Assembly: GCA_964494915.1 (NCBI GenBank)
Contig: CAZBTP010000002.1
Location: forward strand, 1 to 52,917
DNA from: Candidatus Woesearchaeota archaeon
GTDB taxonomy: Archaea > Nanobdellota > Nanobdellia > Pacearchaeales > GW2011-AR1
Reading direction: 5' to 3'
DNA: 52,917 nucleotides
Positions 1 through 52,917 of the stretch are shown here, one piece after another. The position numbers were made by a program, and so were the translations under genes. Position 1 is the stretch's first letter; the number at the start of each line of letters is the position of its first letter. Below the pieces are notes generated by a model. That model saw nothing but the letters and a program-made list of their open reading frames with translations. It ran no database searches and was not told where the DNA came from.

Positions 1-116
1 TTTCTCTAAATTATATAGTTAAAACATTAGCTGGGATTTCTGTGCGGAGATACTGTCGGTTCAAAGAGGATTGGAGTGTAGGGACTGTTTATAAAGAGGA
101 TTATCATTGAAGCGGC

Positions 117-746
117 ATGACGACGAAGAGTTCGATTATGATTGATTTGGAAGATCCGCGGAGTGCGGTGATTGCGGCGGTGCTCGGGAATAGTAGTGCG
201 AAGAAGATTTTGAGTGTTTTGGCAGAAGGAGGGAAGAGTGTGAGTGAGGTTAGTGAGGCCTTAGGGATGGCGTTGAATACTGTTGATTATAATGTGAAGA
301 AACTTGTTCAGGCTGGTTTGGTCGAGCCTGTCCAGCGGGTGTTTTGGAGTTTGAAAGGGAAACGGATTGTGTTGTATAAGATTTCAAATAAAAGGATTGT
401 TATTTCAGCGAGGAGTATGATTCGGGGTGTGTTGCCTACTGTTTTTATAACGATGTTGTTGGCTGTTGGGATTAAGGTTTTTGTGGGAAGTGGAGAGCAA
501 AAAATTATTGAATATGCTGCGCCTGATGGAGGGGCTGTTGCTTCGAAGCTTGTTGAGGGAGGGGTTGAGCGTGCGGTTGATAGTGCTGCTTCTGTGGCAG
601 TTCGTGTTGCTCAGCCTGCGGGTGAGGGGGTTGTGAGTAGTGTGTATAGCGCCTTGTCTAATGCGCCGAATTCGTGGGCATGGTTTTTGATCGGCGGTTT
701 GAGCGCGTTGGTTATATTTCTTTTGTGGAATTGGAGGAGAACATGA
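117..746 (+). CDS. ArsR-like winged-helix regulator with C-terminal membrane segments
   Basis: The N-terminal ~95 aa fit the ArsR/SmtB wHTH pattern (KKILSVLAEGGKSVSEVSEALGMALNTVDYNVKKLVQAGLV). The C-terminal half has hydrophobic segments (LPTVFITMLLAVGIKVFV, WAWFLIGGLSALVIFLLW). The stop overlaps the next start (ATGA at 743-746). Confidence 0.55.
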   Translation: MTTKSSIMIDLEDPRSAVIAAVLGNSSAKKILSVLAEGGKSVSEVSEALGMALNTVDYNVKKLVQAGLVEPVQRVFWSLKGKRIVLYKISNKRIVISARSMIRGVLPTVFITMLLAVGIKVFVGSGEQKIIEYAAPDGGAVASKLVEGGVERAVDSAASVAVRVAQPAGEGVVSSVYSALSNAPNSWAWFLIGGLSALVIFLLWNWRRT

Positions 747-1504
747 ATTGGATGAAAGGAGGTTTCGTGAAGATGGATGGTAGGATTGTGATTGGTGTTT
801 TGTTGCTTGGTATTCTTGCTCTCGGAGGGTATCTCTTCTTGAGTGGGGAGGATGCTGTTGTTTCTGCACAAGGAACAGCGGTTATCGAAACGAAGCCTGA
901 TCTTATCTCAGTGTACTTTGATATTGAGAAGAGAAATGAGAGTGCTGAGGTTGCTCAAGATGAGTTGGAGAAGGCGTCTGATGCTGTGCTGATTGAGATG
1001 TTCCGTCTTGGTTTTGAACGAGCGGATGTGCAACTTTTGAATTATAATATATATCCTGAGTATGATTGGAGTGACGGGGCACGTAAAATTCTTGGCTATG
1101 CTGCGCGTCAGCAGATTGTGGTAAAGAACGATGATTATACCCTTGTGCCTCGGATTGTTGATCGTGGTGTTGGTGCTGGCGGGTATGTGACGAGTATTAA
1201 TTTTGAGTTGTCTGAAGATAAACAGAATGAGTATAAGGCACAGGTGTTAGAGGCTGCTGGTGGAGATGCGCAGCGAAAGGCTACCGCAACAGCGTCTGGA
1301 TTAGGAAAGAAACTCGGAGATTTGGTTTCTGTCGAGAGTCAGGACTTTCAGTATCCGGGACCTATTATGTATTACGAGAAAGCGTTTGCTGTTGCAGATG
1401 CAGGTGCTGCTGAGAGTGCACGAAGCGCTGCGATTGCTATAGCGCCTCGGGATATTGAAGTGCGGGCAACGATTCTTGTGAAGTATAAACTGCGGCGGTT
1501 TTAG
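743..1504 (+). CDS. SIMPL/DUF541-like secreted or membrane-anchored protein
   Basis: Signal anchor IVIGVLLLGILALGGYLFL followed by SIMPL-like blocks (ETKPDLISVYFDIE, GYAARQQIVVKNDD, APRDIEVRATILVKY). The ORF track opens at 674, but the ATG at 743 overlaps the upstream stop and is the more plausible start. Confidence 0.6.
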   Translation: MNWMKGGFVKMDGRIVIGVLLLGILALGGYLFLSGEDAVVSAQGTAVIETKPDLISVYFDIEKRNESAEVAQDELEKASDAVLIEMFRLGFERADVQLLNYNIYPEYDWSDGARKILGYAARQQIVVKNDDYTLVPRIVDRGVGAGGYVTSINFELSEDKQNEYKAQVLEAAGGDAQRKATATASGLGKKLGDLVSVESQDFQYPGPIMYYEKAFAVADAGAAESARSAAIAIAPRDIEVRATILVKYKLRRF

Positions 1505-1542
1505 GATTCGGTAGACTTAAATAATTTGTTCTTTTTGTTTTT

Positions 1543-2619
1543 TTGATGTTGAGTGAGAAACAGATTTTGGAATTGAGAGAGCATTTAGAGCGTGCGCAGA
1601 ATCCTATTTTTTATTATGATAATGATTGTGATGGACTCTGCAGCTTTGTTTTATTACGAAGGTTTTTGGGAAGAGGAAAGGGGGTTAGTATTCGAAGATT
1701 TCCTGATTTGAATAAGGATTACGCGCGGAAGGCCAGAGAATTGAATGCTGATTATGTTTTTGTGTTAGACAAACCTGTGTTGTCGAAGGAGTTTGTCGAG
1801 AGTATTTCGGCTATGGGACTCCCTCTTGTGTGGATTGATCATCATGATTTGCCTGTGCAAGATTTCGAAAAGGAATTTGATCATCTTTATGTGTATAATC
1901 CGATGCGGAATGTAGGGACGGCGAAGAGCAACGAGCCTGTGACGTACTTAACCTATCGGATTACTGGGCGAGAGGAGGATGTGTGGATTGGGGTTATGGG
2001 ATGCATTGCAGATCATTATTTGCCTGATTTTGTGTCTCTGTTCGAGCGGCGCTATCCTGAGTTGTGGGGTGATGTTGAGGAGGCGTTTGATGCGTACTAT
2101 CGAACAGAGATCGGGAGGATTGCTCGTGCTCTGAACTTTGGTCTGAAGGATTCAGTGACGCATGTTGTCCAGTTGCAGAATTTTTTGATTTTATGTAAAG
2201 GTCCGGGAGAGGTGTTGAGCGAGGTTCCGGGGAATTATGCATTCCGAAAGAAATATCGCGCGATTGAGCTGAAGTCTGAGGGTTTTGTCAAGAAGGCTGC
2301 TACGAGTTTGCATGATAATATTATCTTTTTTTCGTATAGTGGAGACTTAAGTATTAGCTCGGATATTTCGAATGCGTTGTCTTATCGATACCAGGATGCG
2401 TATATTGGCGTTGCGTATATTAATGGAGATATTGTCAATATTTCTTTGCGTGGAAAGAATGTTAAGCTGATTTTGGAGCGTATTTTGCGTTTTGTTTCTG
2501 GGAGTGGTGGCGGGCATGCTGATGCTGTTGGAAGTAGGATTCGTGTTTCTGATTTGACACGGTTTCAAGAGTTGTTTGAGCAAGAGGTGGCTCGATATCG
2601 TGGTGAGTGTTCTGATTGA
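1543..2619 (+). CDS. DHH/DHHA1 family phosphoesterase (RecJ/NrnA-like)
   Basis: Motifs YDNDCDG (DxD), WIDHHD (DHH) and GSGGGHADAVG (DHHA1 GGGH). Confidence 0.65.
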   Translation: MMLSEKQILELREHLERAQNPIFYYDNDCDGLCSFVLLRRFLGRGKGVSIRRFPDLNKDYARKARELNADYVFVLDKPVLSKEFVESISAMGLPLVWIDHHDLPVQDFEKEFDHLYVYNPMRNVGTAKSNEPVTYLTYRITGREEDVWIGVMGCIADHYLPDFVSLFERRYPELWGDVEEAFDAYYRTEIGRIARALNFGLKDSVTHVVQLQNFLILCKGPGEVLSEVPGNYAFRKKYRAIELKSEGFVKKAATSLHDNIIFFSYSGDLSISSDISNALSYRYQDAYIGVAYINGDIVNISLRGKNVKLILERILRFVSGSGGGHADAVGSRIRVSDLTRFQELFEQEVARYRGECSD

Positions 2620-52430: not shown

Positions 52431-52553
52431 TTTACTTATATAGGCGATAGTAGAATTGAACTGCTCTATTCGGTGTAAACAATATTATCATTTCTTTTCC
52501 TAAATTAGATAGCGAGAATAAATTTACATGTAATGTCTTATCAAGAAATTATT

Positions 52554-52856
52554 TTACATCTGTGCGACAAAATCATCTTGCCAATCTGCTAGGCCAGATA
52601 AACCTTTGCCTCTTAGATAAGCACTATCTCTCTCTAATAGACTTTTCCATTCTAGCAAGAGATCTGATCTATTTGCTTTATATCTATTCAGAGTGTTACC
52701 AATTTCTCTACCTGTTTGCGGATCATAGGCAAATCTGACATCAGGGGTTGATAAAAAAACAACATTCTGTCCCTTAAAGCCATGATTATATATGTGTTCA
52801 TAAAATAGTTCTTTGGTAGGAAATGTTCGTAGGATAAAATCCCCTCCATTTAGCAT
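52554..52856 (-). CDS. Hypothetical protein
   Basis: 100-aa ORF whose ATG lies 6 nt from the 55-nt repeat. On the minus strand the repeat supplies tttatagattatata just upstream. No family recognised. Confidence 0.35.
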   Translation of the reverse strand: MLNGGDFILRTFPTKELFYEHIYNHGFKGQNVVFLSTPDVRFAYDPQTGREIGNTLNRYKANRSDLLLEWKSLLERDSAYLRGKGLSGLADWQDDFVAQM

Positions 52857-52862
52857 AACTTG

Positions 52863-52917
52863 TAGTATATAATCTATAAAGGGTTAGCCTTTTTAGGTGC
52901 TAACCCTATGTTGTTTT
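52863..52917. repeat. 55-nt element, second copy (truncated by window end)
   Basis: Identical to 37491-37545 over all 55 nt available. Confidence 0.8.

What the first reader, a model, noticed from the sequence alone, without database searches (positions are those of the whole stretch)
1..52917. The + strand is G/T-rich regardless of gene orientation, so + and - genes use opposite synonymous codons
In the GC-richer parts of the window the + strand is visibly depleted in C and enriched in G and T, whether the local gene is on + or -.

Examples I translated by hand:
- **+ gene 117..746.** It begins atg acg acg aag agt tcg att atg att gat ttg gaa gat ccg cgg agt gcg gtg. By my hand count only about 10 of the first ~76 codons end in A or C.
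- **- gene 7807..8922.** It begins atg aaa aga ata ctc gct gca ctc aca aca ctc atc gca aca atc gtc ggc gca and is dominated by C/A-ending codons throughout.
- **Other - genes.** The same holds for the ATPase 34074..35621 and for 40607..41266.
- **Other + genes.** uppS, gatB, tfe and the rhomboid use G/T endings.

This is a mutational strand asymmetry strong enough to override any single codon preference. It is reminiscent of extreme leading/lagging asymmetry in a few bacteria and, to my knowledge, is not commonly described in archaea. No polarity switch is obvious across about 50 kb. The skew looks weaker around lig (46972-48678).
Basis: seen in the sequence. Interest (0 to 1): 0.6.

Follow-up and report, generated by a model that had tools for sequence, protein, structure and literature searches.

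The report
Extreme strand-specific base bias, DPANN archaeon
In this small uncultured DPANN archaeon one DNA strand is so enriched in G and T at freely changeable sites, whichever way the genes point, that genes on opposite strands use mirror-image codons; this is a known kind of mutation bias, but stronger here than the bacterial record and in a domain said to lack it.

Summary
At fourfold sites, + genes read A .22 C .10 G .23 T .45 and - genes read A .44 C .27 G .10 T .19 (chi2 = 944). Expressed on the + strand, the two sets are nearly identical.

- **Size of the effect.** The strand component is GC4 +0.42 and TA4 +0.37. The coding-strand component is about 0. Combined skew is 0.55, against a maximum of 0.446 among 352 bacterial chromosomes (PMC2099444).
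- **Consequences.** Eleven of 18 codon families change their top codon between strands, and amino-acid use shifts.
- **Spread.** The bias occurs across this 1-Mb genome, its genus and related Pacearchaeota/Woesearchaeota-type MAGs. alaS has opposite codon usage in congeners, matching local polarity, so the cause is mutational and tied to the physical strand.
- **Exceptions.** Unskewed patches in the window are low-GC accessory islands.

The composition shift looks like deamination (A to G plus C to T), which is inferred, not shown.

Polarity does not reverse at the conserved ORB/cdc6 origin in most relatives. One closed 660-kb relative has a single polarity all round, which suggests effectively one-way replication. 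This cannot be tested in this fragmented genome.

This scan has already noted the same phenomenon in at least 13 other DPANN genomes. A 2026 survey says archaea largely lack such bias.

The parts
1..12000 (.). Strongly skewed block, mostly + genes. The + strand is G/T-rich.
   Evidence: Fourfold sites: GC4 +.61, TA4 +.33, keto4 +.44. Whole-sequence GC skew is about +.4 because coding-strand purine bias adds to the strand effect.
117..746 (+).
   Evidence: Pfam HTH_20 2e-10. 176 of 210 codons end in G/T. GC4 +.75, TA4 +.58.
2960..3652 (+). uppS-type prenyltransferase with G/T-ending codons.
   Evidence: Pfam Prenyltransf listed with the public gene calls. GC4 +.67.
5399..5743 (+). PemK-type toxin gene lacking the skew; probably a recent arrival.
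   Evidence: PF02452. GC4 -.33, TA4 about 0.
6422..7795 (+). gatB with G/T-ending codons.
   Evidence: GatB_N/GatB_Yqey. GC4 +.68, TA4 +.32.
7807..8922 (-).
   Evidence: Pfam Trp_Tyr_perm 5e-26. 292 of 372 codons end in A/C. In + strand terms GC4 +.78, TA4 +.47. The public gene calls miss it.
12001..18700 (.). Low-GC (35%) accessory island with little or reversed skew. It holds an RHH/PIN toxin-antitoxin pair, UDP-glucose dehydrogenase, a GT2 and a polysaccharide deacetylase.
   Evidence: keto4 +.09, GC4 -.10. Pfam hits. The GT2 at 16414-17706 has a true ortholog in only 1 of 20 congeners and not in the closest relative.
18701..44100 (.). Strongly skewed block, mostly - genes. The + strand is still G/T-rich.
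   Evidence: GC4 +.44, TA4 +.47, keto4 +.46. Whole-sequence GC skew is only about +.15, and TA skew about +.2, because the coding-strand bias now opposes G and adds T.
34074..35621 (-). Type IV filament ATPase with C/A-ending codons.
   Evidence: Pfam T2SSE 3e-36. In + strand terms GC4 +.60, TA4 +.35.
38432..40231 (-). alaS. It is used as an ortholog probe and has opposite codon usage in congeners.
   Evidence: tRNA-synt_2c 1e-129. Coding-strand fourfold sites are A .49 C .24 G .13 T .13 here, against G .43 T .38 in G003.
40607..41266 (-).
   Evidence: No Pfam hit. In + strand terms GC4 +.38, TA4 +.59.
41389..42845 (+). tfe and a rhomboid protease with G/T-ending codons.
   Evidence: TFIIE_alpha 7e-15 and Rhomboid 1e-30. 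GC4 +.59/+.30, TA4 +.53/+.61.
44101..52917 (.). Low-GC (33%) tail with weak skew. It includes the ligase and an AAA_14/DUF4143 ATPase with reversed GC4.
   Evidence: keto4 +.20. lig 46972-48678 has GC4 +.22, TA4 +.40. 51180-52430 has GC4 -.52.

Best explanation
The window lies on a stretch of a DPANN (Pacearchaeota/Woesearchaeota-type) archaeal chromosome where a strand-specific mutation pressure has driven nearly neutral sites on the + strand towards G and T.

**What is shown**
- The pressure acts on the physical strand whatever the gene direction. + genes therefore end codons in G/T and - genes in C/A.
- The effect reaches first and second codon positions and shifts amino-acid composition: more Val, Gly and Cys on the G/T strand, more Thr, Lys, Ile, Asn and Gln on the other.

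**What is inferred**
- *Source.* The most likely source is replication. One strand spends more time single-stranded or is copied differently, and so accumulates C-to-T and A-to-G (deamination-type) changes.
- *Patchy strength.* Blocks that have kept their orientation for a long time carry the full bias. Recently acquired or inverted blocks, such as the low-GC accessory islands, have not yet acquired it.
- *One-way replication.* In this lineage the exposed strand may be the same over very long distances. The polarity persists through the canonical Orc1/ORB origin in most relatives and round a whole closed chromosome in one of them. That would fit effectively one-way replication.
For: **Strand, not transcription**
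- Strand components at fourfold sites are GC4 .416 and TA4 .365. Coding-strand components are about -.03, with confidence intervals spanning 0.
- The + and - gene compositions coincide once expressed on one strand.
- Intergenic DNA is skewed in the same direction.

**Mutational, not gene-specific**
- alaS orthologs in congeners have opposite fourfold composition, matching the polarity of their neighbours.
- Blocks inverted between relatives carry the polarity of their current position.
- A gene with patchy distribution among congeners sits in an unskewed island.

**Genome-wide and lineage-wide**
- Other contigs of this genome show the same concordance between + and - genes, with |GC4| up to .56.
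- Most sampled congeners are skewed, and so is a minority of more distant relatives.

**Link to replication**
- In the near-complete relative G022 the cumulative skew minimum (308.8-310.1 kb) lies 5-6 kb from the single orc1/cdc6 gene. The second switch lies half a chromosome away.
- cdc6 lies on the G/T-rich strand in almost all relatives.
- In the closed relative G041, GC4 falls from .36 to .05 with distance from the origin in the cdc6 direction, rho -.68.

**Deamination-like signature**
- From unskewed to most skewed 10-kb bins, on the G/T strand, A falls from .33 to .18 and C from .15 to .09. G rises from .17 to .30 and T from .35 to .44.
- Endonuclease V was not found in any of 5 genomes searched. 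UDG was not found in this genome, which is 92% complete.

**Proteome effect**
- Amino-acid use differs between strands in the window and genome-wide.
Against: - Intergenic skew in strongly skewed regions is only about a third of the fourfold-site skew: GC .18, TA .09. Morton & Morton saw the same in bacteria and ascribed it to constraint. It is still not what a purely neutral, uniform process predicts.
- In this genome the skew does not switch within the 3 kb available upstream of cdc6. In same-genus relatives it does not switch within 10 kb. An ORB/DUE origin-like region sits there. A simple bidirectional leading/lagging model is therefore not confirmed for this genus.
- About a third of this genome is nearly unskewed at normal GC content. 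I cannot fully explain this.
- GC4 and TA4 vary partly independently, both within the window and in G041. This hints at two processes.
- There is no gene-orientation preference for the G/T strand: 305 against 333 genes.
- The direction of mutation was inferred from composition only. No polarised substitutions were available.
- Relatives that carry UDG (G003, G007) are as skewed as this genome. Loss of UDG is therefore not the cause.
Confidence: 0.8

Rival explanations
1. The asymmetry comes from a replication mode that always exposes the same strand over the whole chromosome. Two candidates are unidirectional theta replication from the Orc1/ORB origin and mitochondrion-like strand-displacement synthesis. 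Under this reading it does not come from ordinary bidirectional leading/lagging differences. This is a variant of the best explanation, not its opposite.
For: - G041:C1 is a closed 660,274-bp circle with a 55-nt end overlap.
- All 66 of its 10-kb bins have the same sign, and its cumulative GC skew falls monotonically to -35,177.
- Its GC4 shows a sawtooth.36 just downstream of cdc6, decaying to .05, then jumping back about 12-14 kb upstream of cdc6.
- G044:C5 keeps one polarity for 360 kb, with cdc6 at 106 kb.
- In 27 of 46 relatives both 10-kb flanks of cdc6 are G/T-rich on the cdc6 strand. Only 2 show the origin-type switch.
- The A>G plus C>T composition shift resembles the vertebrate mtDNA heavy strand.
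- A bacterial precedent exists in CPR genome Ch65 (PMC7143001).
Against: - G022, in the same family, shows two switches half a chromosome apart, as bidirectional replication predicts, although one arm is weak.
- This genome has some sign switches inside contig chains.
- The ORB repeats flank the AT-rich element in the canonical inverted arrangement in relatives. The replication genes are ordinary: Orc1/Cdc6, PolD, PolB.
- TA4 shows no gradient in G041.
- This genome is in 49 contigs, so its own polarity map is unknown.
Confidence: 0.35
2. The codon difference reflects transcription-coupled mutation or repair, or translational selection acting on the coding strand. The strand pattern would then be a by-product of gene arrangement.
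For: - Whole-sequence GC and TA skews do change with local gene orientation: about .4/.1 where + genes dominate and about .15/.2 where - genes dominate.
- Relative G044 shows a modest coding-strand component.
Against: - At fourfold sites the coding-strand component in the window is -.03, with a confidence interval spanning zero. The physical-strand component is .42/.37.
- + and - genes are interleaved 31:31 and give the same + strand composition.
- The orientation effect in whole-sequence skew is explained by purine loading at codon positions 1 and 2.
Confidence: 0.02
3. The pattern is an artefact of assembly, binning, amplification or damaged template DNA.
For: - The genome is a 49-contig MAG with 2.9% estimated contamination.
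- Some bins of relatives contain unskewed contigs of foreign GC content.
Against: - A second public assembly holds an identical 17.8-kb stretch.
- The same asymmetry appears in dozens of MAGs from unrelated studies and assemblers.
- Reading frames are intact and have Pfam matches on both strands.
- Contig-wise signs look arbitrary, as expected for randomly oriented pieces of a skewed chromosome.
Confidence: 0.02
4. The strand bias is maintained by selection for strand-polar sequence features, such as skewed oligomers used in segregation or fork handling, and not by mutation pressure.
For: - Intergenic skew is weaker than fourfold-site skew.
- Polarity is conserved relative to cdc6 across relatives.
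Against: - The bias is strongest at the least constrained codon sites and weaker at positions 1 and 2.
- Newly acquired genes lack it, which fits slow mutational drift.
- No polar motif was sought or found.
Confidence: 0.05

Closest known systems
Strand-specific codon usage from replication-associated mutation bias in small-genome bacteria. Examples are Borrelia burgdorferi, Treponema pallidum, Chlamydia, Buchnera, Blochmannia, Bartonella, Ehrlichia and Lawsonia. Sources: list in PMC2671203; magnitudes in PMC2099444, Table 6.
   Same: - G>C and T>A fall on one strand at fourfold sites, independent of gene direction.
- Codon usage and amino-acid composition split by strand.
- The genome is small and the repair repertoire reduced.
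   Different: - The host is an archaeon with an Orc1/Cdc6, MCM and PolD/PolB replisome.
- The combined skew in this window (.55; RG .42, RT .37) exceeds the strongest bacterial chromosome average listed (.446). A 53-kb window is not a chromosome average.
- Genes show no preference for the G/T strand.
- A polarity reversal at the origin is not seen in this genus.
One-polarity GC skew of CPR bacterium Ch65 (Microgenomates; Kadnikov et al. 2020, PMC7143001).
   Same: - Both are tiny-genome uncultured organisms.
- The relative G041 has a near-linear cumulative GC skew round a whole closed chromosome.
- The skew is not explained by gene distribution.
- Unidirectional replication was proposed for Ch65.
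   Different: - Ch65 is a bacterium.
- It has a strong G/C disparity (skew about -.33) but no A/T disparity. Here both are skewed.
- One polarity is shown for a relative, not for this genome.
Bacterial-type cumulative GC skew in some archaea. Examples are Pyrococcus and 18 of 224 RefSeq archaea, all Euryarchaeota, plus the DPANN 'Ca. Forterrea' (PMC7111523, PMC5905446).
   Same: - There is a single orc1/cdc6 next to ORB repeats and the polD genes, as in Pyrococcus.
- The relative G022 has its skew minimum near cdc6.
   Different: - I have no magnitudes for those genomes. Puech et al. 2026 (PMC12999951) report a far lower average G excess in archaea than in bacteria.
- I found no report there of an effect on codon choice.
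- Here the bias dominates codon usage, and in most relatives it does not flip at cdc6.
Vertebrate mitochondrial heavy/light strand asymmetry from strand-displacement replication (review PMC3269012).
   Same: - The skew is of comparable magnitude.
- There are joint C>T-type and A>G-type shifts on the same strand.
- The relative G041 has one polarity round the circle and a positional gradient in GC4.
   Different: - This is a cellular chromosome of 0.66-1 Mb.
- No evidence exists on its replication intermediates.
- TA4 shows no gradient.
- The resemblance is compositional only.

Membership tests
Replication-associated strand compositional asymmetry with strand-split codon usage (Borrelia type) | Skew at nearly neutral sites follows the physical strand, not gene direction | tested here: met
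   Strand components are GC4 .416 and TA4 .365. Coding-strand components are about -.03, with confidence intervals spanning 0. Chi2 is 944 for coding-strand composition and 15.7 in + strand terms.
Replication-associated strand compositional asymmetry with strand-split codon usage (Borrelia type) | G>C and T>A on the same strand | tested here: met
   The + strand at fourfold sites reads T .44, G .23-.26, A .19-.22, C .10. GC4 and TA4 correlate genome-wide, r = .84.
Replication-associated strand compositional asymmetry with strand-split codon usage (Borrelia type) | Codon usage and amino-acid composition separate by strand | tested here: met
   GT3 AUC is .98. Eleven of 18 codon families change their top codon. 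Val, Gly and Cys rise and Thr, Lys and Ile fall on the G/T strand.
Replication-associated strand compositional asymmetry with strand-split codon usage (Borrelia type) | Polarity reverses at the replication origin and terminus | tested here: inconclusive
   In this genome there is no switch within 3 kb upstream of cdc6, where the contig ends. Same-genus relatives show none within 10 kb. G022 has switches near cdc6 and half-way round. The closed G041 has none at all.
One-polarity chromosome skew / presumed unidirectional replication (CPR Ch65 type) | Monotonic cumulative skew round a closed chromosome | not testable with these tools
   This genome is in 49 contigs, and 55-nt end overlaps give only a partial graph. 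The feature is met in relative G041: 66 of 66 bins have the same sign and the ends overlap by 55 nt.
One-polarity chromosome skew / presumed unidirectional replication (CPR Ch65 type) | Replication shown to proceed in one direction | not testable with these tools
Mitochondrion-type strand-displacement asymmetry | Excess C>T and A>G changes on the displaced strand | tested here: inconclusive
   The composition shift between unskewed and skewed bins fits. No polarised substitutions were available. The only near copy found was identical, and the metagenome loci retrieved were at most 70% identical.
Mitochondrion-type strand-displacement asymmetry | Skew graded with time spent single-stranded | tested here: inconclusive
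   G041 has a GC4 gradient, rho -.68, but TA4 is flat or slightly opposite. No chromosome-scale test is possible in this genome.
Transcription-associated strand asymmetry | Skew follows the coding or template strand of each gene | tested here: not met
   The coding-strand component is about -.03 for both GC4 and TA4.

The most novel reading that the evidence does not exclude
Pacearchaeota/Woesearchaeota-type DPANN archaea, including this one, copy their chromosome effectively in one direction from the canonical Orc1/ORB origin, or by a mitochondrion-like strand-displacement mode. One strand would then be exposed all round the circle and accumulate deamination changes. The extreme, orientation-independent skew of this window would be the footprint of that mode.
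Probability: 0.35. Interest if true: 0.85.

Novelty: new variant of a known kind. Interest (0 to 1): 0.62.

Why it matters
[quoted passage not shown] That paper does not mention DPANN. This lineage shows the opposite, at or beyond the bacterial extreme.

**Practical consequences**
- A gene finder trained on one codon model can miss genes on the 'wrong' strand. The public calls replace a 371-aa permease with three small ORFs.
- Codon-usage and composition-based methods for binning, gene-transfer detection or expression prediction will misbehave on these genomes.
- Amino-acid composition depends on strand, which can distort phylogenies of an already contentious group.

**Uses of the bias**
- The skew gives a built-in clock for inversions and acquisitions.
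- Because polarity fails to flip at the canonical origin in most relatives, it offers a way to ask how these uncultured archaea replicate.

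Tried and rejected
**Searches for close strains, to polarise substitutions**
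- The look-up of encoding contigs returned only a 100% identical contig.
- The metagenome scan with AlaRS retrieved no locus above 70% identity.
- The closest species representative, G002, has 86% AlaRS identity, so its synonymous sites are likely saturated.

**Ideas tested and dropped**
- *Loss of UDG as the cause.* G003 and G007 carry UDG and are equally skewed.
- *An unusual replisome.* Orc1/Cdc6, PolD and PolB are all present, in a Pyrococcus-like cdc6-polD cluster.
- *A skew switch at cdc6 in this genome.* None was found within the 3 kb before the contig end.
- *Two clean classes of region, skewed and unskewed.* The distribution of |skew| over 10-kb bins is broad, not clearly bimodal.

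**Tests that were not decisive**
- *Same-genus long contigs.* Contigs of 157, 100, 92 and 73 kb show no switch. By my arithmetic that has about a 40% chance under two switches per 1.1 Mb.
- *Orienting this genome's contigs by 55-nt end overlaps.* This gave only short chains. Some have uniform polarity and some have switches.
- *ORB orientation as a clue to one-way firing.* Relatives show the usual inverted arrangement.

**Not available**
- McInerney 1998 (PMC27958) is not held in the library.

Full report
**What the window is.** The window is the whole of contig C2 of a 1.01-Mb, 49-contig MAG (39% GC, 92% complete, 2.9% contamination).
- It carries housekeeping genes: several aminoacyl-tRNA synthetases, gatB, uppS, tfe, an ATP-dependent DNA ligase, ScpB and a type IV filament locus. 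It is therefore chromosomal.
- The best matches of its Orc1/Cdc6 are MAGs titled Candidatus Pacearchaeota, Woesearchaeota or Nanoarchaeota archaeon. The organism is a DPANN archaeon of that group.

**Check of the observation.** I defined genes as non-overlapping longest ORFs (62 in the window, 31 on each strand, 86% coding). Many were confirmed by Pfam.
- At fourfold-degenerate sites + genes read A .223 C .102 G .230 T .445. The - genes read A .443 C .265 G .101 T .191 on their coding strand (chi2 = 944, p = 2e-204).
- Converted to the + strand, the two sets nearly coincide.
- G+T at third positions separates + from - genes with AUC .98.
- A bootstrap over genes gives a physical-strand component of .416 (GC4) and .365 (TA4). 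The coding-strand component is about -.03 for both, with intervals spanning zero.
- Eleven of 18 synonymous families change their most-used codon between strands. Examples are Ala GCT/GCA, Glu GAG/GAA, His CAT/CAC, Thr ACT/ACA and Val GTT/GTA.

**Why whole-sequence skew looks uneven.** Plain GC skew is about +.4 in the first 12 kb and about +.15 at 25-41 kb. TA skew does the reverse.
- At fourfold sites both blocks are equally polar, with keto4 of .44 and .46.
- The difference comes from the usual purine richness of coding strands at codon positions 1 and 2. It adds to G and subtracts from T where + genes dominate, and does the opposite where - genes dominate.

**Exceptions inside the window.** Two low-GC stretches carry little skew: 12.0-18.7 kb (35% GC, keto4 .09, GC4 slightly reversed) and 44.1-52.9 kb (33% GC, keto4 .20).
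- The first holds an RHH/PIN pair and a polysaccharide cluster.
- Its GT2 (16414-17706) has a true ortholog in only 1 of 20 congeners and not in the closest relative. It is accessory DNA.
- A PemK toxin gene (5399-5743) and an AAA_14/DUF4143 ATPase (51180-52430) also lack or reverse the skew.
- I read these as recent arrivals or recent inversions that have not yet been remodelled. That is an inference.

**Genome and lineage.**
- Other contigs show the same agreement between + and - genes, with arbitrary sign and |GC4| up to .56.
- I classed each gene by the skew of its neighbours only. This puts 305 genes on the G/T-rich strand and 333 on the other, so there is no orientation preference.
- Fourfold composition is mirrored between the classes. 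Amino-acid use shifts: Cys, Val, Gly and Trp rise on the G/T strand, and Thr, Lys, Ile, Asn and Gln fall.
- About a third of the genome is nearly unskewed at normal GC content, and the distribution of skew strength is broad.
- Twelve of 14 sampled relatives (13 congeners and one same-family genome) are skewed around alaS, with |GC4| .17-.58. Long contigs of four congeners keep one polarity for 73-157 kb.
- Among more distant metagenomic relatives the bias ranges from none to strong.

**Mutational origin.**
- alaS lies on the C/A-rich strand here and in G002. There its fourfold sites are A .49-.54 and C .23-.24.
- In G003, G007, G008 and G012 alaS lies on the G/T-rich strand, and its sites are G .31-.44 and T .32-.40.
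- In every case this matches the neighbours.
- Between relatives, synteny blocks that differ in orientation carry the polarity of their present position.
- Intergenic DNA has the same sign of skew but only about a third of the strength. Morton & Morton reported the same for bacteria and ascribed it to constraint in compact intergenic regions. I keep it as a caveat.

**Likely chemistry.** From unskewed to the most skewed 10-kb bins, on the G/T-rich strand, A falls .33 to .18 and C .15 to .09. G rises .17 to .30 and T .35 to .44, and GC content at these sites rises.
- That is what excess A>G and C>T on one strand would give. These are the two deamination products, as on the vertebrate mitochondrial heavy strand.
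- This is inference from composition.
- Endonuclease V was not found in any of five genomes searched.
- UDG was not found in this genome, but it is present in two equally skewed congeners, so its loss is not the cause.
- An HhH-GPD glycosylase is encoded in the window.

**Relation to replication.** Each genome searched has one orc1/cdc6, followed by the polD genes as in Pyrococcus.
- Upstream of it, here (C4:45114-45542) and in nearly all relatives, lie ORB-like TTTCCAnnGGAAA repeats around an AT-rich stretch. This is a canonical origin-like region.
- In G022 (same family, 511 kb, near complete) the cumulative skew minimum lies 5-6 kb from cdc6 and a second switch lies half-way round. One arm is strong (about +.3) and the other weak (about -.1).
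- In this genome there is no switch in the 3 kb before the contig end.
- In 46 relatives with usable flanks, both 10-kb sides of cdc6 are G/T-rich on the cdc6 strand in 27. Only 2 show an origin-type switch.
- G044 keeps one polarity for 360 kb, with cdc6 at 106 kb.

**The closed relative G041.** G041:C1 closes on itself with a 55-nt overlap and is 660,274 bp.
- All 66 of its 10-kb bins have the same sign, and its cumulative GC skew falls monotonically.
- On the cdc6 strand its GC4 decays from .36 just downstream of cdc6 to .05, then jumps back about 12-14 kb upstream of cdc6 (rho -.68; neighbouring bins are not independent). TA4 stays flat.
- This fits effectively one-way replication, as proposed for the CPR bacterium Ch65. 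It is shown for a relative only, and G022 argues that the clade is not uniform.

**Comparison with what is known.**
- Strand-split codon usage is textbook for Borrelia and about ten other small-genome bacteria.
- In Morton & Morton's survey of 352 bacterial chromosomes the strongest combined fourfold-site skew is .446 (Blochmannia). Borrelia has .378.
- This window has .55, and the classed 63% of this genome about .44. A window or a selected subset is not a chromosome average.
- For archaea, bacterial-type cumulative skew is reported for 18 of 224 RefSeq genomes and one DPANN.
- Puech et al. 2026 conclude that archaea largely lack strand-specific mutational skew. DPANN is not mentioned in that paper.
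- I found no paper on skew in Pacearchaeota or Woesearchaeota.
- Within this scan the same phenomenon has been noted in at least 13 other DPANN genomes, including a one-polarity chromosome. My results on G041 and G044 are an independent check on different genomes.

**Verdict.** It is a new variant of a known kind: replication-type mutational strand asymmetry, here in an archaeal lineage, at record strength, and without the expected reversal at the origin in most relatives. The replication mode behind it remains open.

Noticed in passing
window 7807-8922: The public gene calls on an identical contig (ENA ERZ27284378 k139_642099) do not call the 371-aa Trp/Tyr permease on the - strand (Pfam 5e-26). 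They list three small + strand ORFs of 51, 66 and 82 aa instead. The strand-split codon usage probably misleads a gene finder trained on one codon model.
   Followed up: partly
G000:C4:45114-45542 (L122:17009-17437), upstream of orc1/cdc6: This is an origin-like region. An AT-rich run of about 90 nt is flanked by ORB-like repeats (TTTCCAGTGGAAATAGTGGT, TTTGCATGGGAAATAGAGGT, TTTCGTGGGAAGGTG, TTTCGTGTGGAGATG). Similar TTTCCAnnGGAAA boxes lie 50-500 nt upstream of cdc6 in nearly all relatives, followed by the polD genes.
   Followed up: partly
G041 (relative), contigs C1-C12: C1 closes on itself by a 55-nt overlap, giving a 660,274-bp circle. The other 11 contigs of that bin (about 120 kb) show no skew, and four of them (C5, C10, C11, C12) have 47-51% GC against 36%. 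They are probably mis-binned or extrachromosomal.
   Followed up: partly
G000 contig ends: Many contig ends share exact 55-nt overlaps (for example C7.R-C20.L, C13.L-C26.L, C26.R-C35.L, C24.R-C30.L). These are remnants of the assembly graph that give a partial scaffold. The chain C13rev-C26-C35-C40 contains a block of about 25 kb of opposite polarity, which looks like a recent inversion.
   Followed up: partly
relatives G013, G015, G016, G018, G020, G025 (alaS loci): The AlaRS match falls into two pieces within longer open frames of 699-729 aa. G006 also matches in two pieces, within a 634-aa frame. G016 has one TAG inside its match. This suggests an insertion (intein-like?) or a split in alaS of some congeners.
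   Followed up: no
window 21124-21738: This is an HhH-GPD base-excision glycosylase gene (Pfam 7e-20). It has reversed GC4 (-.27) but normal TA4 (+.38), so the two skews are decoupled within one gene.
   Followed up: no
G000:C16:13000-27000, G022:C1:257000-272000, G044:C5:11000-28000, G041:C1:68000-87000: A conserved block of genes that almost all point the same way (28 of 30 on one strand in G022; identity not checked) lies on the C/A-rich strand in G000 and G044, and on the weakly C/A-rich strand in G022. It lies on the G/T-rich strand in G041. The strand class of a large conserved operon-like block therefore differs between relatives.
   Followed up: partly
window 1-52917: Along the window GC4 falls (about .7 at 0-9 kb to about .3 at 38-48 kb) while TA4 rises (about .35 to about .55). 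The two skews are correlated genome-wide (r = .84) but not locked together. I have no explanation.
   Followed up: partly
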